This document shows, piece after piece, positions 27,789 to 62,147 of a DNA stretch of 64,000 nucleotides; within the stretch, counting starts at the first letter, position 1, and each line of letters begins with the position of its first letter. Under the pieces are notes generated by a model. That model was not told the origin of the DNA, did not search any database, and was given only the letters and a program-made list of their open reading frames with translations. A program made the position numbers and the translations under genes. This DNA comes from a virus (taxonomy: Duplodnaviria > Caudoviricetes), in IMG/VR virus record IMGVR_UViG_3300025867_000005; one strand, written 5' to 3'.

Positions 27789-27876
27789 CGGAGTTTAGCT
27801 CAGTTGGTAGAGCACCGCACTTTTAATGCGGGGGTAGCGTAAGCAATCACGGGTTCGAACCCCGTAACTCCGGCCA
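27789..27876 (+). tRNA. tRNA-Lys(TTT), long variable arm
   Basis: cloverleaf, CCA. Confidence 0.9.
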
Positions 27877-28284: not shown

Positions 28285-28383
28285 AGTAGAATAGGCCAAA
28301 TTGGTAGGGCAGTTGACTGTTACTCAACCCAAGACAATCTTAACCGATTGTGTGTGCAGGTTCGAATCCTGCTTCTACTGCCA
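28285..28383 (+). tRNA. tRNA-Asn(GTT), very long variable arm
   Basis: cloverleaf, CCA. Confidence 0.88.
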
Positions 28384-29255: not shown

Positions 29256-29344
29256 GAGGGTATGGAGTAATTGGTTAACTCGCCAGGTTTTCATCCTGGA
29301 AACGCACTGCGCTTGTGCGGGTTCGAATCCCGCTACCCTTGCCA
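29256..29344 (+). tRNA. tRNA-Glu(TTC), long variable region
   Basis: cloverleaf, CCA. Confidence 0.9.
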
Positions 29345-30092: not shown

Positions 30093-30212
30093 GGGGATGT
30101 GGCGCAATGGCAAACACGGGTTGTATCCTAACAGCTTAGGTCGTGCGGAACAGCCTGTTGTCTAAATCCAAATTACGACAACTTGTATGTTCGAATCCTG
30201 CCTTCCCCATCA
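30093..30212 (+). ncRNA. tRNA-like RNA with extra arms
   Basis: acceptor GGGGATG/CTTCCCC, D-loop-like TGGCAA, TTCGAAT; two extra helices. Confidence 0.5.
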
Positions 30213-30219
30213 TTTTTTA

Positions 30220-30383
30220 CGGGACGAAGTAAAACGGAAAGGTCTCGGATCAATTGATCCCGAACACATGTCAGACTGGTAAGCGCAACCGAATTGACTT
30301 CGGGTTTATTTTCCGATAAAAGACTATAACACCAAGGAATGGTGCCTTGGAAATATTTGGTTCGACTCCAAAAGTCCCGACCA
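30220..30383 (+). ncRNA. tRNA-like RNA with giant D-domain (type A)
   Basis: CGGGAC/GTCCCG-A-CCA, T arm TTTGG-TTCGACT-CCAAA, ~100-nt D insertion. Confidence 0.65.
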
Positions 30384-30495
30384 ACATCTGTTTCTAATTA
30401 ATTCAGAGAAAACATTGAACAGCCGTGGGCTCTGTTTAATCTCAATCGGTGAGTTTACCTAATGCGGTAAAAGTCCGTGGCCTCCTCCGTTTTAT

Positions 30496-30584
30496 TGATA
30501 GGTGCGGAGAATGGTATTCCAGTTGGCTGTTAACCAACCGTCCCGCAAGGGCAATCGCTGGTTCGAATCCAGTCCTATCAGCCA
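30496..30584 (+). tRNA. tRNA-Asn(GTT), long variable arm
   Basis: cloverleaf, CCA. Confidence 0.88.
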
Positions 30585-30592
30585 TTTTTTAT

Positions 30593-30725
30593 GCAGTAGG
30601 AGTAAAACGTAAAGTCGGTTCTGGAAACCTCTGGGTTCGTTCGATGTCGTGCCCAGTCAAGGAACTGATATAACACCTCCAAACGAAGGAGGAGATATCT
30701 GGTTAGACTCCAGTCTACTGTACCA
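30593..30725 (+). ncRNA. tRNA-like RNA with giant D-domain (type A)
   Basis: GCAGTAG/CTACTGT-A-CCA; shares AGTAAAACG and TATAACACC with 30220-30383. Confidence 0.65.
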
Positions 30726-31473: not shown

Positions 31474-31543
31474 GGGTGATAAGTTGAAGTACCTTTACGT
31501 GGTTTCACCTATAGAGTCACTTGCGATTCTCGAAATCTTCAAC
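31474..31543 (+). ncRNA. HDV-like (theta) self-cleaving ribozyme
   Basis: P1 GGGTGA/TCACCT (covaries with copy at 27698), identical P2/P3/L3/J4-2. Confidence 0.8.
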
Positions 31544-32190
31544 AAAATGATATCTTGGATAATTTTTAAGAATTTCATAGCTTTCCCTTCTTTAAAGTGT
31601 TGGAAAGTTGAAACATCAATAATACAAAGTTCTATATTTCGTTCGTGACAAGCTTGGCATTTCCTGTTGTCATTGTTTTGAATTTTGGAAAGCTTATCTT
31701 CACCGTAGATAGGTTCGTAATGAAAGATACCATTTAGTTCGAAAGCAAGTTTCAAAGAAGGAATGTAGATATCTAGTTCTGAATTGATAGCGTCCTTCCT
31801 ATTGAAGTGGAATTCAAGATTTGGGTAAAGGATCGGCAACTTCGTTTCCAACCACCTTTCAAGCTTAGATATTTTTGTTCCTTTTGTTTTATGCATGTTA
31901 TTATAGGTTGCTGAACAAGATTGACTGCAAAAATGGTGTTTGGATTTCTTGATGCGCGAAATTTGTATCTTAAATTTTTTACTACATTGTTCGCAGTTGA
32001 TAAAAATTGGAGGATGAACAGATTGACCGAAACAGATAAGAGAACAATATTCAGAAGTTTCACCTTTTTTTGTATTTTGAATCCTGTGTTTTTCTTTGTA
32101 GAAAGTTTTACCGCAATGTTTACATTGTAACGGTAGTAGTTGACGTGATTTAGCTGCTTGGAATTCTTCTTCGGTAAAAAGTGGTATCAT
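31495..32190 (-). CDS. zinc-finger + Vsr-like homing endonuclease
   Basis: CxxC..FCSxSC repeats; ELDIYIPSLKLAFELNGIFHY. Confidence 0.8.
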   Translation of the reverse strand: MIPLFTEEEFQAAKSRQLLPLQCKHCGKTFYKEKHRIQNTKKGETSEYCSLICFGQSVHPPIFINCEQCSKKFKIQISRIKKSKHHFCSQSCSATYNNMHKTKGTKISKLERWLETKLPILYPNLEFHFNRKDAINSELDIYIPSLKLAFELNGIFHYEPIYGEDKLSKIQNNDNRKCQACHERNIELCIIDVSTFQHFKEGKAMKFLKIIQDIILLKISRIASDSIGETT

Positions 32191-32536: not shown

Positions 32537-32613
32537 GCTTGTGTAGCGCAACTGGATAACGCATCTGGCTCTTACCCAGAGGATTGCGGGATCGTTCCCC
32601 GCCACAAGTACCA
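32537..32613 (+). tRNA. tRNA-Lys(CTT)
   Basis: cloverleaf, CCA. Confidence 0.9.
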
Positions 32614-32625
32614 TTTTTTTTAAGA

Positions 32626-32715
32626 GGGGGTTGTTCTTTACGGAGGTCTGTAAAACCTTTGCCGTTATTATGTAAAGCGGTTCGGCAGATAGTTCGACTC
32701 TATCAGCCCCCACCA
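32626..32715 (+). tRNA. tRNA-Tyr(GTA), D-arm-less
   Basis: acceptor, anticodon, long V and T arms, CCA; D arm replaced by 10-nt linker. Confidence 0.75.
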
Positions 32716-32829: not shown

Positions 32830-32906
32830 GCCCCTGTAACTCAATTGGCTAGAGGCTCTGACTCGTAATCAGAAAGTTGTCAGATCATACCTGACCGGGG
32901 GCTCCA
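32830..32906 (+). tRNA. tRNA-Thr(CGT)
   Basis: cloverleaf, CCA. Confidence 0.9.
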
Positions 32907-33540: not shown

Positions 33541-33615
33541 GCCTGCGTCGTCTACTGGCTAGGACATTAGATTCTCAATCTAATAAAGACGGATCGATAC
33601 CGTTCGCAGGTGCCA
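33541..33615 (+). tRNA. tRNA-Glu(CTC)
   Basis: cloverleaf, CCA. Confidence 0.9.
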
Positions 33616-33646: not shown

Positions 33647-33736
33647 GAGAGTTTGGGTGAAATGAATTAGCCAACGGTCTGCAAAACCGTAAAACACAGA
33701 AATGTGATGAGGGTTTAAGTCCCTCAACTCTCTCCA
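33647..33736 (+). tRNA. tRNA-Cys(GCA), long variable arm
   Basis: cloverleaf, U73, CCA. Confidence 0.85.
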
Positions 33737-34362: not shown

Positions 34363-35366
34363 GGGAATATGGAATAACGGCTAGTTCACCTCACTTAACC
34401 ATTTCAATAGTTAAATATTCTGCCATTTTGTTTGATAATTATAATCCGTGTAGAGGAGACGTATGATACCACTTTACACCGAAGAAGAATTTAACAAGGC
34501 TAAATCAAGAGATTTACTTCCCAACCAATGTAAAAATTGCGGGAAGATTTTCTTTAGAGAAAAACACAATATAATGTTTTACATTAATAATGGAGGTGGA
34601 GATTTTTGTTCAATTTCTTGTTCTTTTAAATTCAATAACCCACTGATTGAAGTTGTTTGTCATACATGTGGAAAATCATTTAAGAAGAAAAAACTTGATG
34701 CAGATAAAGAAGAACGGCATTTTTGTAGTAGAAGTTGTGCTAATAAATATTCTTCAAATATCAATAAAGAACAAAAGACTTTAAACCAAAAGAAATGGGC
34801 AAATTCAGAAGAAGGAAAAAATTTTTTAACTAAAACAAGCAAATTGGCATGTATTAAAAGTATAGAAATTAGAAAACTTAAATGGAAAATGAATAAATGT
34901 CCGGTTTGTGGTAAAGAGTTTAGGGTAATGTTTAAACATAAGAAATACTGTTCGGCAACTTGTTATAATAAAATATCTGGTGGTATAAAAAGGGGGTCTA
35001 GTAGAGGTAAGCATGGTTGGTATAAGGGATACTGGTGTGATTCTTCTTGGGAACTTGCTTGGGTGATTTACAACCTTGATCATGGGATTAAGTTTGAAAG
35101 GAATCATCAAGGTTTTGAATACGAATTTGAAGGAAAGAAACATAAATACTATCCAGATTTCATTTTAGAAGATGGAACTTACGTTGAAATTAAATCTGTT
35201 ATGGATGAAAAGAACAAAGCTAAAATTGCTTCGTTCCCAACTTCAATTAAAGTTTTACAGCATAAAGAGATTAAAATATTCATAGACCATGCGATTAAAA
35301 TCTATGGTAAAAATTTCATCTCATTATATGAGGAAGGTCTGGGTTCGAATCCCGGTATTCTCGCCA
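34363..35366 (+). tRNA. tRNA (probably Asp) split at the anticodon by an endonuclease gene; halves 34363-34395 and 35327-35366
   Basis: GGGAATA/TATTCTC acceptor, CCTCA/TGAGG anticodon stem, G73, CCA. Confidence 0.75.
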
Positions 35367-35380
35367 ACGCCTTGACATAG
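34463..35380 (+). CDS. zinc-finger + TnsA-like PD-(D/E)xK homing endonuclease
   Basis: CxxC..FCS repeats; CDSSWE, YYPDF..YVEIK. Confidence 0.82.
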   Translation: MIPLYTEEEFNKAKSRDLLPNQCKNCGKIFFREKHNIMFYINNGGGDFCSISCSFKFNNPLIEVVCHTCGKSFKKKKLDADKEERHFCSRSCANKYSSNINKEQKTLNQKKWANSEEGKNFLTKTSKLACIKSIEIRKLKWKMNKCPVCGKEFRVMFKHKKYCSATCYNKISGGIKRGSSRGKHGWYKGYWCDSSWELAWVIYNLDHGIKFERNHQGFEYEFEGKKHKYYPDFILEDGTYVEIKSVMDEKNKAKIASFPTSIKVLQHKEIKIFIDHAIKIYGKNFISLYEEGLGSNPGILANALT

Positions 35381-35588: not shown

Positions 35589-36077
35589 ATGTCTAGGAAA
35601 AGAACATGGACTGATGAAGATTTTACTAAGGCGGCTTCTGTTTCTACTTCTGTTCGAGATCTTCTAAAAAAGATAGGATTACATCCAACTGGAGCAAACT
35701 ATAAAACGGTTTGGGCAACTGTCAGGCGTTTAGGAATAAATACCAAACATTGGGTCGGGAGTGGCCATCTTAAAGGTAAAACACATAATTGGTCTAAGTG
35801 TCTACCTTTCGAAGAGATTTTGATAAAAGATTCGCATTATAGAGGTAGTACTTCTCGGTTAAAATCTAGACTAATAAAAAACGGAAAGCTTTTAAATAAG
35901 TGTTATGAATGTGGACAAGAACCTTTATGGAAAGGAAAGATTTTAGTTCACGTTCTTGACCATATTAATGGCGACAATACAGATAATAGAATCGAAAACC
36001 TTAGATTGTTGTGTCCGAATTGTAATAGTCAAACAGAAACTTTTGCTGGGAAGAATAGAAAGTTTGTTCATTGTTAA
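35589..36077 (+). CDS. HNH endonuclease
   Basis: CYEC..LDHINGDNTDNRIENLRLLCPNC. Confidence 0.9.
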   Translation: MSRKRTWTDEDFTKAASVSTSVRDLLKKIGLHPTGANYKTVWATVRRLGINTKHWVGSGHLKGKTHNWSKCLPFEEILIKDSHYRGSTSRLKSRLIKNGKLLNKCYECGQEPLWKGKILVHVLDHINGDNTDNRIENLRLLCPNCNSQTETFAGKNRKFVHC

Positions 36078-36245: not shown

Positions 36246-36331
36246 CTGTGTGTAGTCCGTAATTTGGTAGCGGGTCGGCTTTGGGAGCCGGAGCGAAAGT
36301 CTTGTAGGTTCAAATCCTATCACACAGACCA
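36246..36331 (+). tRNA. tRNA-Pro(TGG)
   Basis: cloverleaf, extended V, CCA. Confidence 0.88.
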
Positions 36332-38759: not shown

Positions 38760-38834
38760 GTTGGTATTAGCACAACGGTAGTGTGTCTGACTGTGAATCA
38801 GAAGAAGAGGGATCAGCACCCTCATGCCAACCCA
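38760..38834 (+). tRNA. tRNA-His(GTG)
   Basis: G-1:C73 8-bp acceptor, CCA. Confidence 0.88.
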
Positions 38835-40356: not shown

Positions 40357-43300
40357 TGCGAGGAAAAGGGAGGCTAAAAAATCGTGACGAAAACTGTAAG
40401 GCTGACAGCGCCGCCCCGCTTTGGTACGCTTTGCCTATCAAAATATGCCGCAATGCGCTTGCGGTATCGAGTTTCAGGAATGCTTGAAGGCTTGACCGTC
40501 AAGGCAAGGGAGCGACATGAATCCGGTTGAACAGTATTTGAGTGACATGGGGGCGATTCGCTCGACTGGCGCGGGAACCGTGGAAACGTCCTACTACACC
40601 GCGCTTTCCACGCTCTTGAACGAGATCGGCAAGAAGCCAAGCCCGAAAGTCCGTTGCGTTATCCAGCTTCAGAACAAAGGCGCGGGCATGCCTGACGGCG
40701 GCATGTTCACCGCCGACCAGTTCAGAGGCAAAGCCGCCAAAGAGGACGCCGGGGCGAACCCGCTCAAAACCCTCCCGCCTTCCCGTGGCGTGATCGAAGT
40801 CAAATCCCCCGCCGAGGACATGGCGGACATCATCGAAAGCGAGCAAATCGCCCGCTATTGGGATCACTACGGCCTTGTTCTGGTCACGAATTACCGCGCT
40901 TTCACGCTGATCGGGCGCACGGCCACAGGTCACGCCGTGGAACTGGAAAGTTTCACGCTGGCCGCGACCGAGGCGGAATTCTGGAAACTGGCCGCGCACC
41001 CGCGCACCTGCCCCGCCGCCCTGCGCGAACGGTTCGCCGAATACCTATACCGCGCGATGACCCATAACGCCCCGCTGGCCTCGCCGCAGGACGTGGCCGC
41101 TATCCTCGCCTCCTATGCCCGTGACGCCAAGGCACGCATCGAACACGCCGACTTGCCCGCGCTGGCCGGATTGCGTGAAGCCCTGGAGCACGCCCTTGGT
41201 CTCAAATTCGAGGGCGATAAGGGCGAGCACTTCTTCCGCTCCACGCTGATTCAAACTCTCTTCTATGGCATTTTCTCAGCATGGGTGCTTTGGGCAAGGA
41301 AACGCAAGCCTGCCCCCGCCGCATCCGTCAAGGAAAAGAGCCTCAAATATGCGTTGAAAGAAACGGCAGCATCCTACCGCACGAACGCCAAGCAGTTTGA
41401 ATGGCGTTCAGCCGTGTGGCTCCTGCGCGTGCCGATGATCCGCGCACTATTCGGGCAGATTGCCACGCCGGAACGTCTCGGCCCCTTGGGGCTGGAAGAA
41501 GTCCTCGACTGGGCCGCGTCCGCCCTGAACCGCGTGGACGGCGACGCGTTCTTCACCGCCTTTGACGAGGGGCACGCCGTCCAGTACTTCTATGAGCCGT
41601 TCCTGCAAGAGTTTGACCCCGAGTTGCGCAAAGACCTTGGCGTATGGTACACGCCGACCGAGATCGTTGAATATCAGGTTGAGCGCGTGGATACCGTCCT
41701 GCGCGAAGAGCTGCACATTGCCGACGGGCTGGCCGACCCGCGCGTGATCGTCCTTGACCCGTGCTGCGGCACCGGGGCCTATGTGCGTGCTGTGCTGAAC
41801 CGCATCGCCAAGACGCTAGACGCCAAAGGCGGCGACGCGTTGAACGCGCAAGAAGTAAAAACCGCAGCGCTTGAACGCGTGTTTGGCTTCGAGATCCTGC
41901 CCGCGCCGTTCGTTATCGCCCATCTGCAAATCGGTCTGTTGCTGGAAACGCTCGGCGCACCGCTCATAGAGTCAAAAGAGCCCGACAAGAAGGCTGAACG
42001 CGTCGGCGTATACCTGACCAACTCCCTGACCGGCTGGGAGCCGCCCAAGGAGAAGCCCAAGCAACTGCTCCTCATGCCCGAACTCGAACAGGAGCGCGAC
42101 GCGGCCAACAACGTGAAACAGGGGAAGAAAATCATAGTCGTAATCGGCAACCCACCCTATAACGGTTTTGCGGGTGTCAGCCCCGAAGAGGAGAACGGGC
42201 TTGTAAATGCATATAAAGAAGGACTGAGTGATTGGGGCATAACCCGAAATTACCTCGATGACTTGTATGTGAGATTTTTCCGTTTGGCCGAAAAGCGTAT
42301 TACCGAGCACAGTGGTTTGGGAGTTGTGTCCTTCATTTCAAACTTCTCCTACCTCTCTGAACAGTCTTATGTGATTATGCGTCGTCGTTTCCTTGAAGAG
42401 TTCGACACACTCCGGTTCGACTGCCTTAACGGTGACAGTCGCGAGACTGGCAAACTGACACCGGATGGGAACCCCGACCCTTCAGTCTTCTCGACTCAAT
42501 GGAATCGTGAAGGTATTCGCGTTGGCACTGCCATCGGACTGATGGTCAAACACGATAATCGAAGTCAAAGCAAAGACAAGGCGAAAGTCTCGACTGAGCA
42601 TGGGACGGTTCGCTTCCGGCAATTCTGGGGAACGAAGAAACGCGAAGAACTACTTGCGAGCCTTGCATCCTCAAATTTTGATGCTCAATACGACATTTCA
42701 AGCCCCTCGCTTTCAAATCGTTGGAGTTTTCGACCGTCTGACGTTTCGGCCACATATTTGCAATGGTCCAACGTCGTTGATTTGAGTGCCGAGAAGCCTT
42801 TTCTTGGCTTAAACGAAAATAGAGGCGGCGATCTTCAGTGTATTGATAAGGATGCTTTACGGGCTAAGATTCAAGTCTACCTTGACCAAAATTTGTTGTG
42901 GGATGAATATGTTTCACCTTCTGCTGCGCTAACAAAGCCTGCCGCTGGGTTCAAACCTGAAAGTGTAAGGAAAAAAGTTCAGGCAGAAGAGCCTTTCTCG
43001 GAGGATCGCATTCAACGTTACTTGCGTAGACCATTCGATACTGTTTGGGCTTACATTTCGGACGTGAGCCCACTGTGGAATCGCTCTCGCCCCGAGTTGC
43101 GCACACACTTGGCGGGCAGCCAGAAGTGTTTCATAACACGTCCCTCATGTCCCGCTAATCCCGAGGGTATCCCAGTGCATATGACAAGGCTCGCAGGGGA
43201 GCAGGATTCAATACGTGGTCATGCGTACTATTTCCCTGTCAGACTGAAAAAGACCCAAAAGAAAAAAGTAGCCATGATGGGTGTGGAATCTGAAGAAGTG

Positions 43301-43633
43301 AAGCCCCGAAATGCGGAAGAGAAGTCTGACGAGTCCGCCAGAAGAGTATACCATAAACAGGAGGTACTCTTTGATGATGATGTTTCAACAGCCAACCTTT
43401 CCCCCGCCACGCTCTACTACCTCCCCGGCACATCCGGTTGGGACGCTCCCGCCGAACCGCTCCTCACATACGAACTCGTAAACGGAGAAATGACGATCAC
43501 GGGCGTAGACTCCTTCTTCACAGGCAATTCTTTGCCTATCCCGGAAAATCTTGCAGGCTACCCCGTTACCTCCATCGGCGACTACGCATTTTCCGACTGT
43601 GCATCCCTCACCTCTGTCAACATCCCCAGCGGC
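40357..43633 (+). mobile_element. GC-rich foreign (host-like) DNA insert
   Basis: abrupt GC and codon-usage shift; left edge truncates a tRNA-like 5' half (40333-40356). Confidence 0.7.
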
Positions 43634-43804
43634 GGATATAGTGACAATATGGGATGGCATAAAACTCAGAGTCATAATGCCCTATACAGGATTAAAAAGG
43701 GTTCATGGTACGGTAGTTGCCGGCCTCTTGTAGAATATCGTGGTGGCGTCAGTAGGAAACAAATGCTTGCGGATATCGAAAAGTTTTCAAAGAAAGGAAA
43801 TTAA
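40517..43804 (+). CDS. chimeric ORF: truncated type IIG/ISP-like RM enzyme (N6-adenine MTase) + BspA-type LRR fragment + phage C-terminus
   Basis: PDG..IEVK nuclease, WYTP, LDPCCGTG, GNPPY; then PVTSIGDYAFSDCASLTSVNIP. Confidence 0.8.
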   Translation: MNPVEQYLSDMGAIRSTGAGTVETSYYTALSTLLNEIGKKPSPKVRCVIQLQNKGAGMPDGGMFTADQFRGKAAKEDAGANPLKTLPPSRGVIEVKSPAEDMADIIESEQIARYWDHYGLVLVTNYRAFTLIGRTATGHAVELESFTLAATEAEFWKLAAHPRTCPAALRERFAEYLYRAMTHNAPLASPQDVAAILASYARDAKARIEHADLPALAGLREALEHALGLKFEGDKGEHFFRSTLIQTLFYGIFSAWVLWARKRKPAPAASVKEKSLKYALKETAASYRTNAKQFEWRSAVWLLRVPMIRALFGQIATPERLGPLGLEEVLDWAASALNRVDGDAFFTAFDEGHAVQYFYEPFLQEFDPELRKDLGVWYTPTEIVEYQVERVDTVLREELHIADGLADPRVIVLDPCCGTGAYVRAVLNRIAKTLDAKGGDALNAQEVKTAALERVFGFEILPAPFVIAHLQIGLLLETLGAPLIESKEPDKKAERVGVYLTNSLTGWEPPKEKPKQLLLMPELEQERDAANNVKQGKKIIVVIGNPPYNGFAGVSPEEENGLVNAYKEGLSDWGITRNYLDDLYVRFFRLAEKRITEHSGLGVVSFISNFSYLSEQSYVIMRRRFLEEFDTLRFDCLNGDSRETGKLTPDGNPDPSVFSTQWNREGIRVGTAIGLMVKHDNRSQSKDKAKVSTEHGTVRFRQFWGTKKREELLASLASSNFDAQYDISSPSLSNRWSFRPSDVSATYLQWSNVVDLSAEKPFLGLNENRGGDLQCIDKDALRAKIQVYLDQNLLWDEYVSPSAALTKPAAGFKPESVRKKVQAEEPFSEDRIQRYLRRPFDTVWAYISDVSPLWNRSRPELRTHLAGSQKCFITRPSCPANPEGIPVHMTRLAGEQDSIRGHAYYFPVRLKKTQKKKVAMMGVESEEVKPRNAEEKSDESARRVYHKQEVLFDDDVSTANLSPATLYYLPGTSGWDAPAEPLLTYELVNGEMTITGVDSFFTGNSLPIPENLAGYPVTSIGDYAFSDCASLTSVNIPSGGYSDNMGWHKTQSHNALYRIKKGSWYGSCRPLVEYRGGVSRKQMLADIEKFSKKGN

Positions 43805-46113: not shown

Positions 46114-46188
46114 TGCCCTATGGTGTAATTGGTAGCACGAAACGCTCTGGACGTTTAGGACTGGGATCGTACCCTGGTAGGGCAACCA
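46114..46188 (+). tRNA. tRNA-Gln(CTG)
   Basis: U1-A72, cloverleaf, CCA. Confidence 0.9.
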
Positions 46189-46195
46189 ACGCTAT

Positions 46196-46271
46196 GGCCC
46201 TGTGGTGTAATCGGCAAGCACATGACTCTTTGAAAGTCAAAGACAGAGATCGTACCTCTGCGGGGCTACCA
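46196..46271 (+). tRNA. tRNA-Gln(TTG)
   Basis: TGACT-CT-TTG-AA-AGTCA; CCA. Confidence 0.85.
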
Positions 46272-61228: not shown

Positions 61229-61642
61229 ATGAATAATGAATTTTCTTTGAAGCTATATGTCGTTAGAAATTCCGCCGGTAAATACTTCCGGAACAAGGGT
61301 TTTGGGGGATATGGAGATGTCTGGGTAGATGACATCAACAGGGCAAAAATCTATCCGCGTATCGGTCCCGCCAAGTCTGTCGTTACCTTTTGGGCAGGAC
61401 ACTATCCCAAATACGGAATTCCTGAGATTATTGAGTTGAAGGTTACGGAATCTGTAGTTCTTAATCAAGAAGTTCGTTTTGGCAAGCTTGTGACAGCAAA
61501 CGAAAAGCGGGAAGCGAAGAAAGAAGAACAGGATCGTAAACAAAAACTCTCGAAAGCAAAGAAGGATTACGAGAGAGCTCTTAAGGAATTGGAAAGGTTT
61601 AACAATGAACCCGAAACTGGTAAAAACCAGCAAATTCATTAG
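61229..61642 (+). CDS. hypothetical protein
   Basis: RBS. Confidence 0.65.
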   Translation: MNNEFSLKLYVVRNSAGKYFRNKGFGGYGDVWVDDINRAKIYPRIGPAKSVVTFWAGHYPKYGIPEIIELKVTESVVLNQEVRFGKLVTANEKREAKKEEQDRKQKLSKAKKDYERALKELERFNNEPETGKNQQIH

Positions 61643-62147
61643 TCTTGTCCTACGTCACAGACCAGACAAGATCGGCCTTGAAATAGATGCCAATGGATGG
61701 GCTAAAGTGGGAGAACTACTTGAAAAGGCTTCGATTAGCTTTGAAGACCTTTGTGAAGTCGTGGATACAAACGAAAAGAAGCGCTTTGCATTTAATGCGG
61801 ACAAGACTTTAATCCGTGCTTCTCAGGGACATTCTATCAATGTAGACCTCGAAATGAAAGCCGTTCAACCTCTGGATGTCTTGTATCACGGAACCGCAGA
61901 AAAGAATCTAAAATCCATCATGGATGGCGGGTTGAAGAAGATGAGTCGAAACCATGTCCACCTTTCTCCGGACTGGCAGACAGCATATAATGTTGGAATT
62001 CGACACGGGAAACCAGTTATCTTGATAGTTGACAGCAAAACGATGTATTCCAAGGGATACAAATTCTATCTATCAGAAAACGGAGTGTGGCTGACTGACA
62101 GTGTTCCTGTTGAATTTATCAAAGAAAGGCATATAGATTACCCATGA
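61605..62147 (+). CDS. kptA: RNA 2'-phosphotransferase (Tpt1/KptA)
   Basis: SKFISLVLRH, KKRF, IRASQGHS, YHGT, RNHVHLS, NGVWL. Confidence 0.93.
   Translation: MNPKLVKTSKFISLVLRHRPDKIGLEIDANGWAKVGELLEKASISFEDLCEVVDTNEKKRFAFNADKTLIRASQGHSINVDLEMKAVQPLDVLYHGTAEKNLKSIMDGGLKKMSRNHVHLSPDWQTAYNVGIRHGKPVILIVDSKTMYSKGYKFYLSENGVWLTDSVPVEFIKERHIDYP

What the first reader, a model, noticed from the sequence alone, without database searches (positions are those of the whole stretch)
30220..30725. Family of CCA-ended tRNA-like RNAs with a giant structured D-domain
Seen: 30220-30383 and 30593-30725 each have an acceptor stem, A73-CCA, a T arm (TGG-TTcGACT-CCA / TGG-TTaGACT-CCA) and an anticodon-like hairpin whose loop starts AA rather than CU (AATGGTG; AAACGAA). 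The D arm is replaced by 70-100 nt of nested helices flanked by shared AGTAAAACG.AAAG and TATAACACC motifs. Conserved flanks around divergent interiors argue against random decay. Inference: non-decoding tRNA mimics (decoys for nucleases or synthetases, Y-RNA-like scaffolds) or tRNAs with a new removable insertion.
Basis: partly seen in the sequence, partly recalled or inferred. Interest (0 to 1): 0.7.

Follow-up and report, generated by a model that had tools for sequence, protein, structure and literature searches.

The report
Phage tRNA look-alikes with extra arm
A 304-kb phage and its close relatives encode a small family of RNAs built like transfer RNAs, each with a long, fast-changing extra hairpin where the D arm sits. 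They are real, conserved RNA genes of unknown job that probably do not read codons, and they resemble the long-unexplained "RNA C" of phage T4.

Summary

**What is there**
- el1 (30220-30383) and el2 (30593-30725) each have a 7-bp acceptor stem, A73-CCA, a T arm and a 7-nt-loop anticodon-like hairpin.
- Each also has a discrete 83- or 54-nt hairpin between two shared joiners (RAGUAAAACGNAAAG and UAUAACA).
- ARAGORN and Rfam 15 call neither.

**Relatives**
- I found three more distinct members and one variant in related phage contigs. One set is binned in a Paludibacteraceae MAG.
- Across the five, 92% of 22 proposed pairs form and 12 pairs show compensatory changes (0 of 2000 shuffles match).
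- The joiners, V loop and T loop are conserved. The inserted hairpin is hypervariable but always stable.

**What it probably is**
- With the hairpin deleted, one relative is called tRNA-Ile(GAU) at default settings, so the family derives from tRNA.
- Four of five members lack U33, position 56 varies, and two orthologues differ in the "anticodon". Ordinary decoding is therefore unlikely.
- The closest known analogue is T4 RNA C (same architecture, no sequence match, function unknown).
- A removable D-loop insert and a Y-RNA-like role both remain possible. The phage encodes a divergent Ro60-like protein.

**Earlier notes of this scan**
- The scan noted this same stretch twice.
- It also noted other tRNA mimics with extra hairpins in other jumbo phages.

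The parts
30220..30383 (+). el1, whole tRNA-like RNA gene (164 nt)
   Evidence: Parsed. Covarying helices. CM R1 gives 60.2 bits. Not called by ARAGORN or Rfam.
30220..30226 (+). el1 acceptor 5' strand (C1-G72, as in bacterial tRNA-Pro)
   Evidence: Pairs with 30373-30379, 6 of 7.
30227..30241 (+). el1 joiner J1 (AAGUAAAACGGAAAG). It holds the possible D-stem 5' strand GUAA and the D-loop-like part.
   Evidence: Conserved in all five members.
30242..30324 (+). el1 inserted hairpin domain (83 nt)
   Evidence: Folds on its own at -21.4 kcal/mol, z -1.9.
30325..30331 (+). el1 joiner J2 (UAUAACA). It holds the possible D-stem 3' strand UAAC and position 26.
   Evidence: Conserved as YAUAACN in all members.
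30332..30350 (+). el1 anticodon-like arm: 6-bp stem, loop AAUGGUG (UGG at 34-36, A33)
30356..30372 (+). el1 T arm, loop UUCGACU
30373..30383 (+). el1 acceptor 3' strand, A73, encoded CCA
30496..30584 (+). tRNA-Asn(GUU) with a long variable arm, lying between el1 and el2 (context). In relatives the family members follow this gene.
30593..30725 (+). el2, whole tRNA-like RNA gene (133 nt)
   Evidence: Parsed. CM R1 gives 69.3 bits. Not called by ARAGORN or Rfam.
30593..30599 (+). el2 acceptor 5' strand (G1.U72)
   Evidence: Pairs 7 of 7 with 30715-30721.
30600..30614 (+). el2 joiner J1 (GAGUAAAACGUAAAG)
30615..30668 (+). el2 inserted hairpin domain (54 nt)
   Evidence: Folds on its own at -20.1 kcal/mol, z -2.4.
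30669..30675 (+). el2 joiner J2 (UAUAACA)
30676..30692 (+). el2 anticodon-like arm: 5-bp stem, loop AAACGAA. Positions 34-38 are identical to the array's canonical tRNA-Arg(ACG) loop CUACGAA.
30698..30714 (+). el2 T arm, loop UUAGACU (A at position 56)
30715..30725 (+). el2 acceptor 3' strand, A73, encoded CCA

Best explanation
el1 and el2 are genes for stable, tRNA-derived RNAs of a small, lineage-restricted family.

**Structure.** Each folds as a cloverleaf whose D region carries a long extra arm, giving a five-arm tRNA look-alike. The order of parts is:
- acceptor stem with encoded N73-CCA
- a conserved A-rich joiner
- a 54-83-nt stable hairpin of hypervariable sequence
- a second conserved joiner
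- an anticodon-like arm
- a conserved 5-nt V loop
- a T arm with loop UUNGACU

**Shown here.** The family exists in at least three related phage genotypes. Its helices covary. Its core is conserved while the hairpin turns over.

**Inferred.**
- The genes sit in register within the tRNA array, with 1-10-nt spacers, so they are probably co-transcribed with the tRNAs.
- They are probably cut out by RNase P and 3' processing, like T4 RNA C.
- They persist at full length (133-164 nt).
- They do not serve as ordinary decoders, because most lack U33, C56 and G19.

**Most likely role (inference only).** They act as tRNA mimics on proteins that recognise tRNA. Their anticodon loops copy positions 34-38 of particular tRNAs: Arg-ACG, Arg-UCU, Ile-GAU, and Pro-UGG for the anticodon triplet only (3 of 5 positions). 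Positions 32-33 are changed to purines in four of five members. This fits decoys or competitive inhibitors for enzymes directed at the anticodon loop or the CCA end, or handles for the phage's own RNA-repair proteins.
For: **Anatomy and uniqueness.**

**Not known tRNA, tmRNA or any Rfam family.**

**Further members.**
- relA and relB lie in L204.
- relC lies in L208.
- The same elements occur in a Paludibacteraceae-binned MAG.

**Covariation.**
- 92% of cells are paired.
- 12 of 22 pairs show double-sided changes.
- Slid controls give 42-47% paired and 1-5 such pairs.
- 0 of 2000 shuffles reach the observed values.
- RNAalifold on the hairpin-deleted core recovers the acceptor, anticodon-like and T helices. 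Full-length MFE folds of relA, relB and relC give the same four-way junction.

**Specificity of the model.** CM R1 scores members at 60-77 bits and canonical tRNAs at 39 bits or less.

**Core against hairpin.**
- relA and relC are 92% identical in the core but 57% in the hairpin.
- All hairpins fold better than shuffles (z -1.9 to -5.5).

**tRNA descent.** Hairpin-deleted relB2 is called tRNA-Ile(GAU) at ARAGORN default, and el1 is called Pro(UGG) at -ps85.

**Against decoding.**
- Loops are AAUGGUG, AAACGAA, AGGCUAA, AGUCUAA and CUGAUAA.
- Canonical tRNAs with UGG, ACG, UCU and GAU already stand in the array, all with U33.

**Precedent.**
- T4 RNA C has the same layout: acceptor-like stem, about 60-nt hairpin in the D position, anticodon-like hairpin, T arm.
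- It is made from the tRNA operon transcript (PMC2330249).
- Its role is unknown (PMC3014915 and PMC9697503).
Against: - No transcript, processing, modification or aminoacylation data exist.
- The family has only five distinct members from one phage lineage, so relatedness inflates the covariation counts.
- relB keeps a fully canonical CU-GAU-AA loop and a perfect D stem. At least that member could decode, especially if the hairpin is removed.
- The proposed D stem shows no compensatory change and is not predicted by energy.
- The 19/56 tertiary pair is Watson-Crick in only 3 of 5 members.
- The decoy role is pure inference. No target enzyme has been identified.
Confidence: 0.6

Rival explanations
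1. They are true tRNAs (Pro, Arg, Ile and others) interrupted by a removable insert in the D loop. The hairpin would be excised and the halves rejoined by phage or host enzymes to give working tRNAs of about 80 nt.
For: - The hairpin is a discrete module whose first and last bases pair, flush with conserved joiners.
- Hairpin-deleted relB2 is called tRNA-Ile(GAU) at ARAGORN default, relB at -ps95 and el1 at -ps85.
- Loop positions 34-38 follow canonical rules.
- The phage encodes Tpt1/KptA.
- By unchecked earlier notes, it also encodes RNA ligases and kinases.
- The hairpin sequence is free to vary, as expected of an intron.
Against: - Four of five members lack U33, and three of five lack C56.
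- Four of five hairpin-deleted cores fail ARAGORN at default.
- No EndA-type splicing endonuclease is detectable.
- No bulge-helix-bulge motif is seen at the junctions by eye.
- The insert is far too short for a group I or II intron, and Rfam finds none.
- Canonical tRNAs with the same anticodons already exist in the array.
- Orthologues relA and relC share one body but carry GCU against UCU.
- Protein-spliced D-loop introns are, to my knowledge, unknown in bacteria and phages.
Confidence: 0.2
2. They are Y-RNA-like partners of the phage's divergent Ro60-like protein. The tRNA-like body or the extra hairpin would tether that ring protein to another factor, as YrlA does in bacteria.
For: - The 702-aa ORF at genome 242434-244542 models well (pLDDT 84).
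- It aligns to three Ro60 structures at Z 12.3, 12.1 and 11.2 over about 300 residues. The next helical match is at Z 5.7.
- It has a C-terminal TerD domain (Z 15.8).
- Bacterial and phage Y RNAs mimic tRNA, and one is cut by RNase P and given CCA (PMC4201824).
- Unchecked notes of this scan describe tRNA mimics with extra arms beside Ro60-like genes in other jumbo phages.
Against: - The genes lie 47 kb from the Ro60-like gene, which has its own adjacent structured non-coding region.
- Pfam TROVE does not match.
- There is no YrlA or other Rfam match, either in the elements or beside the Ro60-like gene.
- The extra hairpin is hypervariable, whereas Ro-binding helices are conserved.
- The 5' and 3' ends form an acceptor stem with CCA, not a Ro-binding stem.
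- Z of 11-12 is borderline for helical repeat proteins.
Confidence: 0.12
3. They are decaying tRNA pseudogenes disrupted by insertion of a palindromic element, with no function as RNA.
For: - tRNA finders do not call them.
- They have non-canonical positions 33, 56 and 19.
- Presence and position vary between related phages. The el1 site is empty in L204.
- Many homing endonuclease genes disturb this array.
Against: - Twelve pairs carry compensatory changes, and 92% pairing is kept across members whose stems differ completely.
- Joiners, V loop and T loop are conserved while the stems change.
- Hairpins differ in sequence yet stay stable.
- All members keep an encoded CCA and a 7-bp acceptor stem.
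- The region is identical in independently assembled genomes from other samples.
Confidence: 0.05

Closest known systems
Bacteriophage T4 RNA C (species 1 / species I RNA, rnaC; AF158101 70908-71046)
   Same: - It is encoded inside a phage tRNA gene cluster and made from the same precursor as the tRNAs (PMC2330249).
- It is about 140 nt.
- It folds as a four-way junction: an acceptor-like stem, a roughly 60-nt hairpin in the D-arm position, an anticodon-like hairpin and a canonical T arm (CCGGG-UUCGAAU-CCCGG).
- Its function is unknown after 50 years.
- In a distant T4-like phage only the 3' tRNA-like half is conserved. This parallels the variable hairpin here.
   Different: - There is no sequence similarity. 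blastn of the region against phages finds nothing, and CM R1 does not hit rnaC.
- T4 RNA C has no J1/J2 joiner motifs.
- Its anticodon-like hairpin has an 8-bp stem and a 6-nt loop.
- CCA is not encoded at its annotated 3' end.
- Its acceptor-like stem is imperfect.
- It is an analogue, not a demonstrated homologue.
YrlA-type bacterial and phage Y RNAs (Chen et al. 2014, PMC4201824)
   Same: - They are non-coding RNAs with a tRNA-like domain (T arm, D arm, acceptor-like stem) plus a long helical module.
- They are recognised by tRNA enzymes.
- They are found in phages.
- This phage encodes a Ro60-like protein.
   Different: - In YrlA the RNA ends form the Ro60-binding stem, and the tRNA-like part is internal. 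Here the ends form an acceptor stem with encoded CCA.
- Here the long helix leaves from the D region.
- Here a full anticodon-like arm is kept.
- There is no Rfam match.
- The genes are not next to the Ro60-like gene.
Canonical tRNA (Rfam RF00005), including phage tRNA variants with altered anticodon loops
   Same: - Shared parts are a 7-bp acceptor stem, N73-CCA, a 5-bp T stem with a 7-nt loop starting UU, a 5-bp anticodon-like stem with a 7-nt loop, and a 5-nt V loop.
- One hairpin-deleted member is called tRNA-Ile at default settings.
   Different: - They are 133-164 nt because of a 54-83-nt arm in the D region.
- A purine sits at position 33 in four of five members.
- Position 56 is C, A or G.
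- Only one invariant G stands in the D-loop-like joiner.
- There is no RF00005 hit even at E of 10 or less.
Archaeal tRNAs with non-canonical-position introns (bulge-helix-bulge, cut by EndA)
   Same: An insert interrupts the D region of an otherwise tRNA-like gene.
   Different: - No EndA homologue is present.
- No bulge-helix-bulge motif is seen at the junctions.
- The setting is a bacterial phage.
- Most cores are not canonical even after the insert is removed.

Membership tests
Canonical tRNA (RF00005) | 7-bp acceptor stem, discriminator base, CCA end | tested here: met
   6-7 of 7 pairs in all members, with compensatory changes. N73 plus encoded CCA is present in all.
Canonical tRNA (RF00005) | T arm: 5-bp stem and 7-nt loop U54-U55-C56-R57-A58 | tested here: inconclusive
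   The stem has 4-5 pairs and covaries. The loop is UUNGACU, with U54, U55, G57 and A58 kept, but position 56 is C, A, G, G, C.
Canonical tRNA (RF00005) | D arm of normal size with G18-G19 | tested here: not met
   A 54-83-nt hairpin lies in the D region. Only a weak GUWA/UAAC stem is possible, and energy does not predict it. One G is invariant, and the next base is G, U, G, C or A.
Canonical tRNA (RF00005) | 7-nt anticodon loop with U33 and purine 37 | tested here: not met
   U33 is present only in relB/relB2. The others have A or G at position 33. Purine 37 is present in four of five.
Canonical tRNA (RF00005) | Scores above the thresholds of tRNA models | tested here: not met
   There is no ARAGORN call and no RF00005 hit, even at E of 10 or less. 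Hairpin-deleted cores pass ARAGORN default only for relB2.
T4 RNA C (species 1 RNA) | Stable RNA of about 140 nt encoded in a phage tRNA cluster | tested here: inconclusive
   Location and size are met.
T4 RNA C (species 1 RNA) | Four-way junction with a long hairpin in the D position, an anticodon-like hairpin and a T arm | tested here: met
   Compare the fold of rnaC with the folds of the members.
T4 RNA C (species 1 RNA) | Sequence homology to rnaC | tested here: not met
   blastn of the region against phages finds no match. CM R1 does not hit rnaC in L003. rnaC homologues are confined to T4-like phages.
YrlA / Y RNA | Encoded next to a Ro60 (TROVE) gene | tested here: not met
   The Ro60-like ORF lies at genome 242434-244542, and the elements at 194886-195391. 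Pfam TROVE finds nothing.
YrlA / Y RNA | 5' and 3' ends form a conserved Ro60-binding helix, and the RNA matches the Rfam model | tested here: not met
   The ends form an acceptor stem with CCA. There is no Rfam hit at gathering score or at E of 10 or less. The long hairpin is hypervariable.
YrlA / Y RNA | Binds Ro60 | not testable with these tools
   This needs a pull-down or gel shift with the 702-aa protein.
tmRNA | tRNA-like domain plus a tag reading frame and pseudoknots | tested here: not met
   ARAGORN -m finds no tmRNA in the genome. At 133-164 nt there is no room for a tag frame.
Intron-containing tRNA (archaeal bulge-helix-bulge type) | EndA-type endonuclease available and a bulge-helix-bulge motif at the junctions | tested here: inconclusive
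   PF01974 is absent from the phage at E of 0.1 or less. No bulge-helix-bulge motif is seen by eye. The host genome is unknown, and other nucleases cannot be excluded.
Self-splicing intron in tRNA (group I/II) | Intron core of more than 200 nt that matches Rfam models | tested here: not met
   The inserts are 54-83 nt. No intron family is hit.

The most novel reading that the evidence does not exclude
These are five-arm tRNA mimics that can be processed and perhaps aminoacylated.
- Their anticodon loops copy particular tRNAs (Arg, Ile, Pro).
- The scissile or U-turn position 33 is replaced by a purine.
- They would therefore work as uncleavable competitive inhibitors of host tRNA-targeting defence enzymes.
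- The hypervariable extra arm would keep them off the ribosome and would evolve in an arms race.
This would also give the first functional model for T4 RNA C-type RNAs.
Probability: 0.15. Interest if true: 0.85.

Novelty: new variant of a known kind. Interest (0 to 1): 0.6.

Why it matters
- Phage tRNA clusters have been known since the 1970s to encode extra stable RNAs (T4 RNA C and RNA D) whose roles remain unknown.
- This family offers a second, independent example of the same architecture. It has a clear tRNA ancestry and enough natural variation to show which parts are constrained (core, joiners, CCA) and which are free (the extra arm, the 'anticodon').
- It gives concrete, testable RNAs for asking whether phages use tRNA look-alikes against tRNA-directed host defences, or as partners of phage RNA-repair or Ro60-like proteins.
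- It also shows that standard tRNA and Rfam annotation misses such genes in jumbo-phage tRNA arrays.

Tried and rejected
**Collection scans**
- Exact joiner-motif scans of IMG/VR and of the metagenome contigs gave only chance or coding matches, none with a T arm.
- Exact scans for the el2 T arm/acceptor and for the neighbouring tRNA-Asn in IMG/VR found nothing.
- A relaxed joiner scan of IMG/VR gave 118 chance matches, none passing a T-stem/CCA/acceptor filter.
- blastn of the region against 50,697 GenBank phages found no match.
- CM R1 over 150 further Bacteroidales genomes found no member.

**Routes to relatives that failed**
- TerL relatives in IMG/VR are fragments without tRNAs.
- More distant homologues of the aldolase-like gene are not next to tRNA arrays.
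- The ORF at 35589-36077 turned out to be a mobile HNH endonuclease, so that protein search was wasted.
- Same-phage genomes from other samples are identical in the region and therefore uninformative.

**Ideas dropped**
- A G19-C56 / U19-A56 covariation between el1 and el2 looked striking. It holds in only 3 of 5 members: (G,C), (U,A), (C,G), (G,G), (A,C). It is only suggestive.
- The apparent Pro (C1-G72, A73, G35, G36) and Arg (C35, G/U36) identity sets are noted but not claimed. C1-G72 also occurs in five other tRNAs of the array, and the anticodons vary between orthologues.

**Absent or unmatched**
- No phage ArgRS, and no class II tRNA-synt_2b core such as ProRS would carry.
- No Pfam TROVE match.
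- No EndA.
- No YrlA match beside the Ro60-like gene.
- No Rfam family for T4 rnaC.

Full report
**Setting.** The window is bases 164667-228666 of a 304,025-bp IMG/VR phage record rated complete.
- It is almost wholly transcribed on one strand.
- All 29 ARAGORN tRNA genes of the genome lie at window 27.4-46.3 kb.
- A neighbouring gene has an 86%-identical homologue that NCBI names under a Paludibacteraceae MAG. Two contigs of that MAG carry members of the family described here. This hints at a Bacteroidales host, but it rests on binning only.
- Near-identical genomes of 303-304 kb were assembled from other samples.

**The observation.**
- el1 is 30220-30383 (164 nt) and el2 is 30593-30725 (133 nt). 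They flank a tRNA-Asn gene.
- The order of parts in each is:
  - 7-nt acceptor strand
  - 15-nt joiner J1 (RAGUAAAACGKAAAG)
  - a hairpin of 83 or 54 nt whose terminal bases pair
  - 7-nt joiner J2 (UAUAACA)
  - a stem of 5-6 pairs with a 7-nt loop (AAUGGUG or AAACGAA)
  - a 5-nt loop (AAAUA or AGAUA)
  - a T arm (loop UUCGACU or UUAGACU)
  - the complementary acceptor strand, then A73 and CCA
- The exact 9-mers AGTAAAACG and TATAACACC occur nowhere else in the window.
- The joined pattern occurs only at these two places in the genome.
- ARAGORN, Rfam at gathering score and Rfam at E of 10 or less give nothing for either element.

**Finding relatives.**
- Exact-motif scans of IMG/VR and of the metagenome contigs returned only chance matches. 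blastn against GenBank phages returned nothing.
- Protein neighbours opened the way. Contigs carrying the 86% homologue of the aldolase-like gene end inside the array, before el1.
- Contigs carrying a 74% homologue of the array's HSP20 gene hold the rest of a related array.
  - There, two elements of the same design follow directly after tRNA-Asn: relA (L204:1677-1824) and relB (L204:1826-1968).
  - The position of el1 is empty in that array.
- A pattern built from what all four share found a third genotype with one element, relC (L208:493-643).
- In the GTDB genomes the same pattern found only the Paludibacteraceae MAG. That MAG holds relA, relC and a one-base variant of relB (relB2). Two further hits were chance matches in coding DNA.
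- A covariance model of the 3' domain (R1) scores members at 60-77 bits and the best canonical tRNAs at 39 bits or less.
- R1 finds no further member in this genome, in L204, or in 150 other sampled Bacteroidales genomes.
- On present evidence the family is confined to one phage lineage.

**Structure.**
- On a hand-made alignment of the hairpin-deleted cores, 22 proposed pairs are 92% paired and 12 show double-sided changes.
  - With the 3' partners slid by 1-3 columns, pairing is 42-47% and 1-5 pairs show such changes.
  - None of 2000 column shuffles reaches the observed pairing or compensatory count.
  - The sequences are few and related, so these figures overstate independence. Even so, the acceptor stems, anticodon-like stems and T stems are entirely different sequences in el1, el2, relA/C and relB, and all pair.
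- RNAalifold recovers the same three helices. Full-length minimum-energy folds of relA, relB and relC give acceptor, long hairpin, anticodon-like arm and T arm as a four-way junction.
- A D stem (GUWA with UAAC) is possible. It is perfect in relB (U12-A23) but has an A.A mismatch in the others, it shows no compensatory change, and energy does not predict it. I treat it as unproven.
- A 19/56 pair that covaries between el1 (G-C), el2 (U-A) and relC (C-G) fails in relA (G,G) and relB (A,C). It is suggestive at best.

**What is constrained.**
- J1, J2, the V loop, the T loop (UUNGACU), N73 and CCA are conserved.
- The inserted hairpin is not. relA and relC are 92% identical in the core but 57% in the hairpin, which is close to unrelated pairs at 42-53%.
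- Every hairpin still folds better than its shuffles, with z from -1.9 to -5.5.
- The apical stem of relA and relC keeps pairing through U-A to C-G changes.
- The arm is therefore selected as a stable helix, not as a sequence.

**Descent and decoding.**
- With the hairpin deleted in silico, ARAGORN calls are:
  - relB2: tRNA-Ile(GAU) at the default threshold
  - relB: at -ps95
  - el1: tRNA-Pro(UGG) at -ps85
  - el2, relA and relC: not called at default or near-default thresholds
- The family therefore descends from tRNA.
- Loop positions 34-38 equal those of canonical tRNAs in the same array:
  - ACGAA as in Arg-ACG
  - UCUAA as in Arg-UCU
  - GAUAA as in Ile-GAU
- Positions 32-33 are AA, AA, AG and AG in four members, and CU only in relB.
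- Every canonical tRNA of the array has U33, and tRNAs with UGG, ACG, UCU and GAU anticodons are already present.
- relA and relC share one body but differ at position 34 (GCU against UCU).
- Together with the variable position 56, this argues against ordinary decoding for most members.

**Insert or permanent arm?**
- The phage has Tpt1/KptA, but no EndA-type endonuclease is detectable.
- The inserts are far too short for self-splicing introns, and I see no bulge-helix-bulge motif at the junctions.
- I could not obtain RNA data.
- I rate a removable insert at about 0.2.

**Closest known.**
- T4 rnaC (species 1 RNA) lies at the end of the T4 tRNA cluster.
- It folds with the same layout: an acceptor-like stem, a hairpin of about 60 nt in the D position, an anticodon-like hairpin and a canonical T arm (z -4.6).
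- It is part of the tRNA operon precursor (PMC2330249).
- Its role is still unknown (PMC3014915, PMC9697503).
- It has no Rfam family and is conserved in 740 T4-like phage records.
- It shares no detectable sequence with the present family. I call it an analogue.

**The Y-RNA lead.**
- Pfam finds no TROVE domain in the genome.
- Notes of this scan pointed to a 702-aa ORF at genome 242434-244542. It has no Pfam hit but 2712 homologues.
- An AlphaFold model (pLDDT 84) has a C-terminal TerD domain (Z 15.8).
- The model aligns over about 300 residues to three Ro60 structures: Thermus phage phiLo (Z 12.3), human (Z 12.1) and Deinococcus (Z 11.2). The next helical match is at Z 5.7.
- This is borderline for helical repeats, but the three matches are consistent.
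- YrlA-type Y RNAs mimic tRNA (PMC4201824).
- Against a link:
  - The gene is 47 kb away and has its own structured upstream region, which has no YrlA match.
  - The extra arm here is hypervariable.
  - The RNA ends form an acceptor stem with CCA.
- I rate this reading at about 0.12.

**Verdict.**
- This is a real, covarying, tRNA-derived RNA family with a large extra arm in the D region. Current tools do not annotate it, and it is restricted to one jumbo-phage lineage.
- The mechanism is inferred: the RNAs are processed like tRNAs, kept at full length, and act as mimics on tRNA-recognising proteins.
- This is a new variant of a known but unexplained kind (T4 RNA C; tRNA-like Y RNAs).
- The scan had noted this same stretch in another window, and it had noted other tRNA mimics with extra hairpins in other jumbo phages. 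I did not test those.

Noticed in passing
window 30093-30209; L204:1320-1432; L208:283-395: A third odd tRNA-like gene of about 115 nt lies just upstream of el1 and is conserved in both relatives. Rfam tRNA scores only 17 bits. The acceptor and T arm are present. It ends TCA here and in L204 but CCA in L208. In L204 the loop begins CUGUUAU, like an Asn anticodon loop followed by about 15 extra nt.
   Followed up: partly
window 32624-32714: A CCA-ended tRNA-like gene (acceptor GGGGGUU/AGCCCCC, T loop UUCGACU) that ARAGORN and Rfam do not call. It has almost no D arm and a long variable arm.
   Followed up: no
window 34463-35380 and 35339-35369: The last codons of a 305-aa zinc-finger/endonuclease ORF run into a tRNA 3' half (T arm CUGGG-UUCGAAU-CCCGG, then acceptor strand, G, CCA). 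This suggests a tRNA gene split by a homing-endonuclease gene. GC content drops to 35% here.
   Followed up: no
window 32537-32613, 32830-32906, 33541-33615, 38761-38834, 46114-46271: Six otherwise normal tRNAs have T loops beginning AUC instead of UUC, that is A at position 54. They are Lys-CUU, Thr-CGU, Glu-CUC, His and both Gln. This is unusual for elongator tRNAs.
   Followed up: no
window 27789-27876, 28285-28383, 29256-29344, 30496-30584, 33647-33736, 36246-36331: Long variable arms occur on tRNAs that are normally class I: Lys-UUU, both Asn, Glu-UUC, Cys and Pro-UGG.
   Followed up: no
genome 249893-250042 (L192:1394-1543): Another CCA-ended tRNA-like RNA of 150 nt lies outside the array and has a different design. 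It has a normal-looking D arm, a very long anticodon arm, a variable arm of about 35 nt and T loop UGCGAAU. CM R1 and Rfam do not hit it.
   Followed up: partly
genome 242434-244542 (L222:2435-4540): A 702-aa protein with no Pfam match models as a Ro60-like helical ring plus a TerD domain (Z 11-12 to three Ro60 structures, Z 15.8 to TerD). It has 2712 homologues in metagenomes. It is preceded by a structured non-coding stretch of about 430 nt with no Rfam match.
   Followed up: partly
window 40517-43804: A 1095-aa type IIG/ISP-like methyltransferase-restriction gene has 49-58% GC in a genome of about 41% GC. It is likely a recent acquisition.
   Followed up: no
window 61617-62099: A Tpt1/KptA RNA 2'-phosphotransferase homologue (Pfam PTS_2-RNA, E 2e-55) lies in the same window as the tRNA array.
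   Followed up: partly
window 31495-32190 (-), 34463-35380 (+), 35589-36077 (+): At least three endonuclease genes are inserted in the tRNA array (two zinc-finger-FCS types and one HNH_3). Their number and positions differ in the related array L204.
   Followed up: partly
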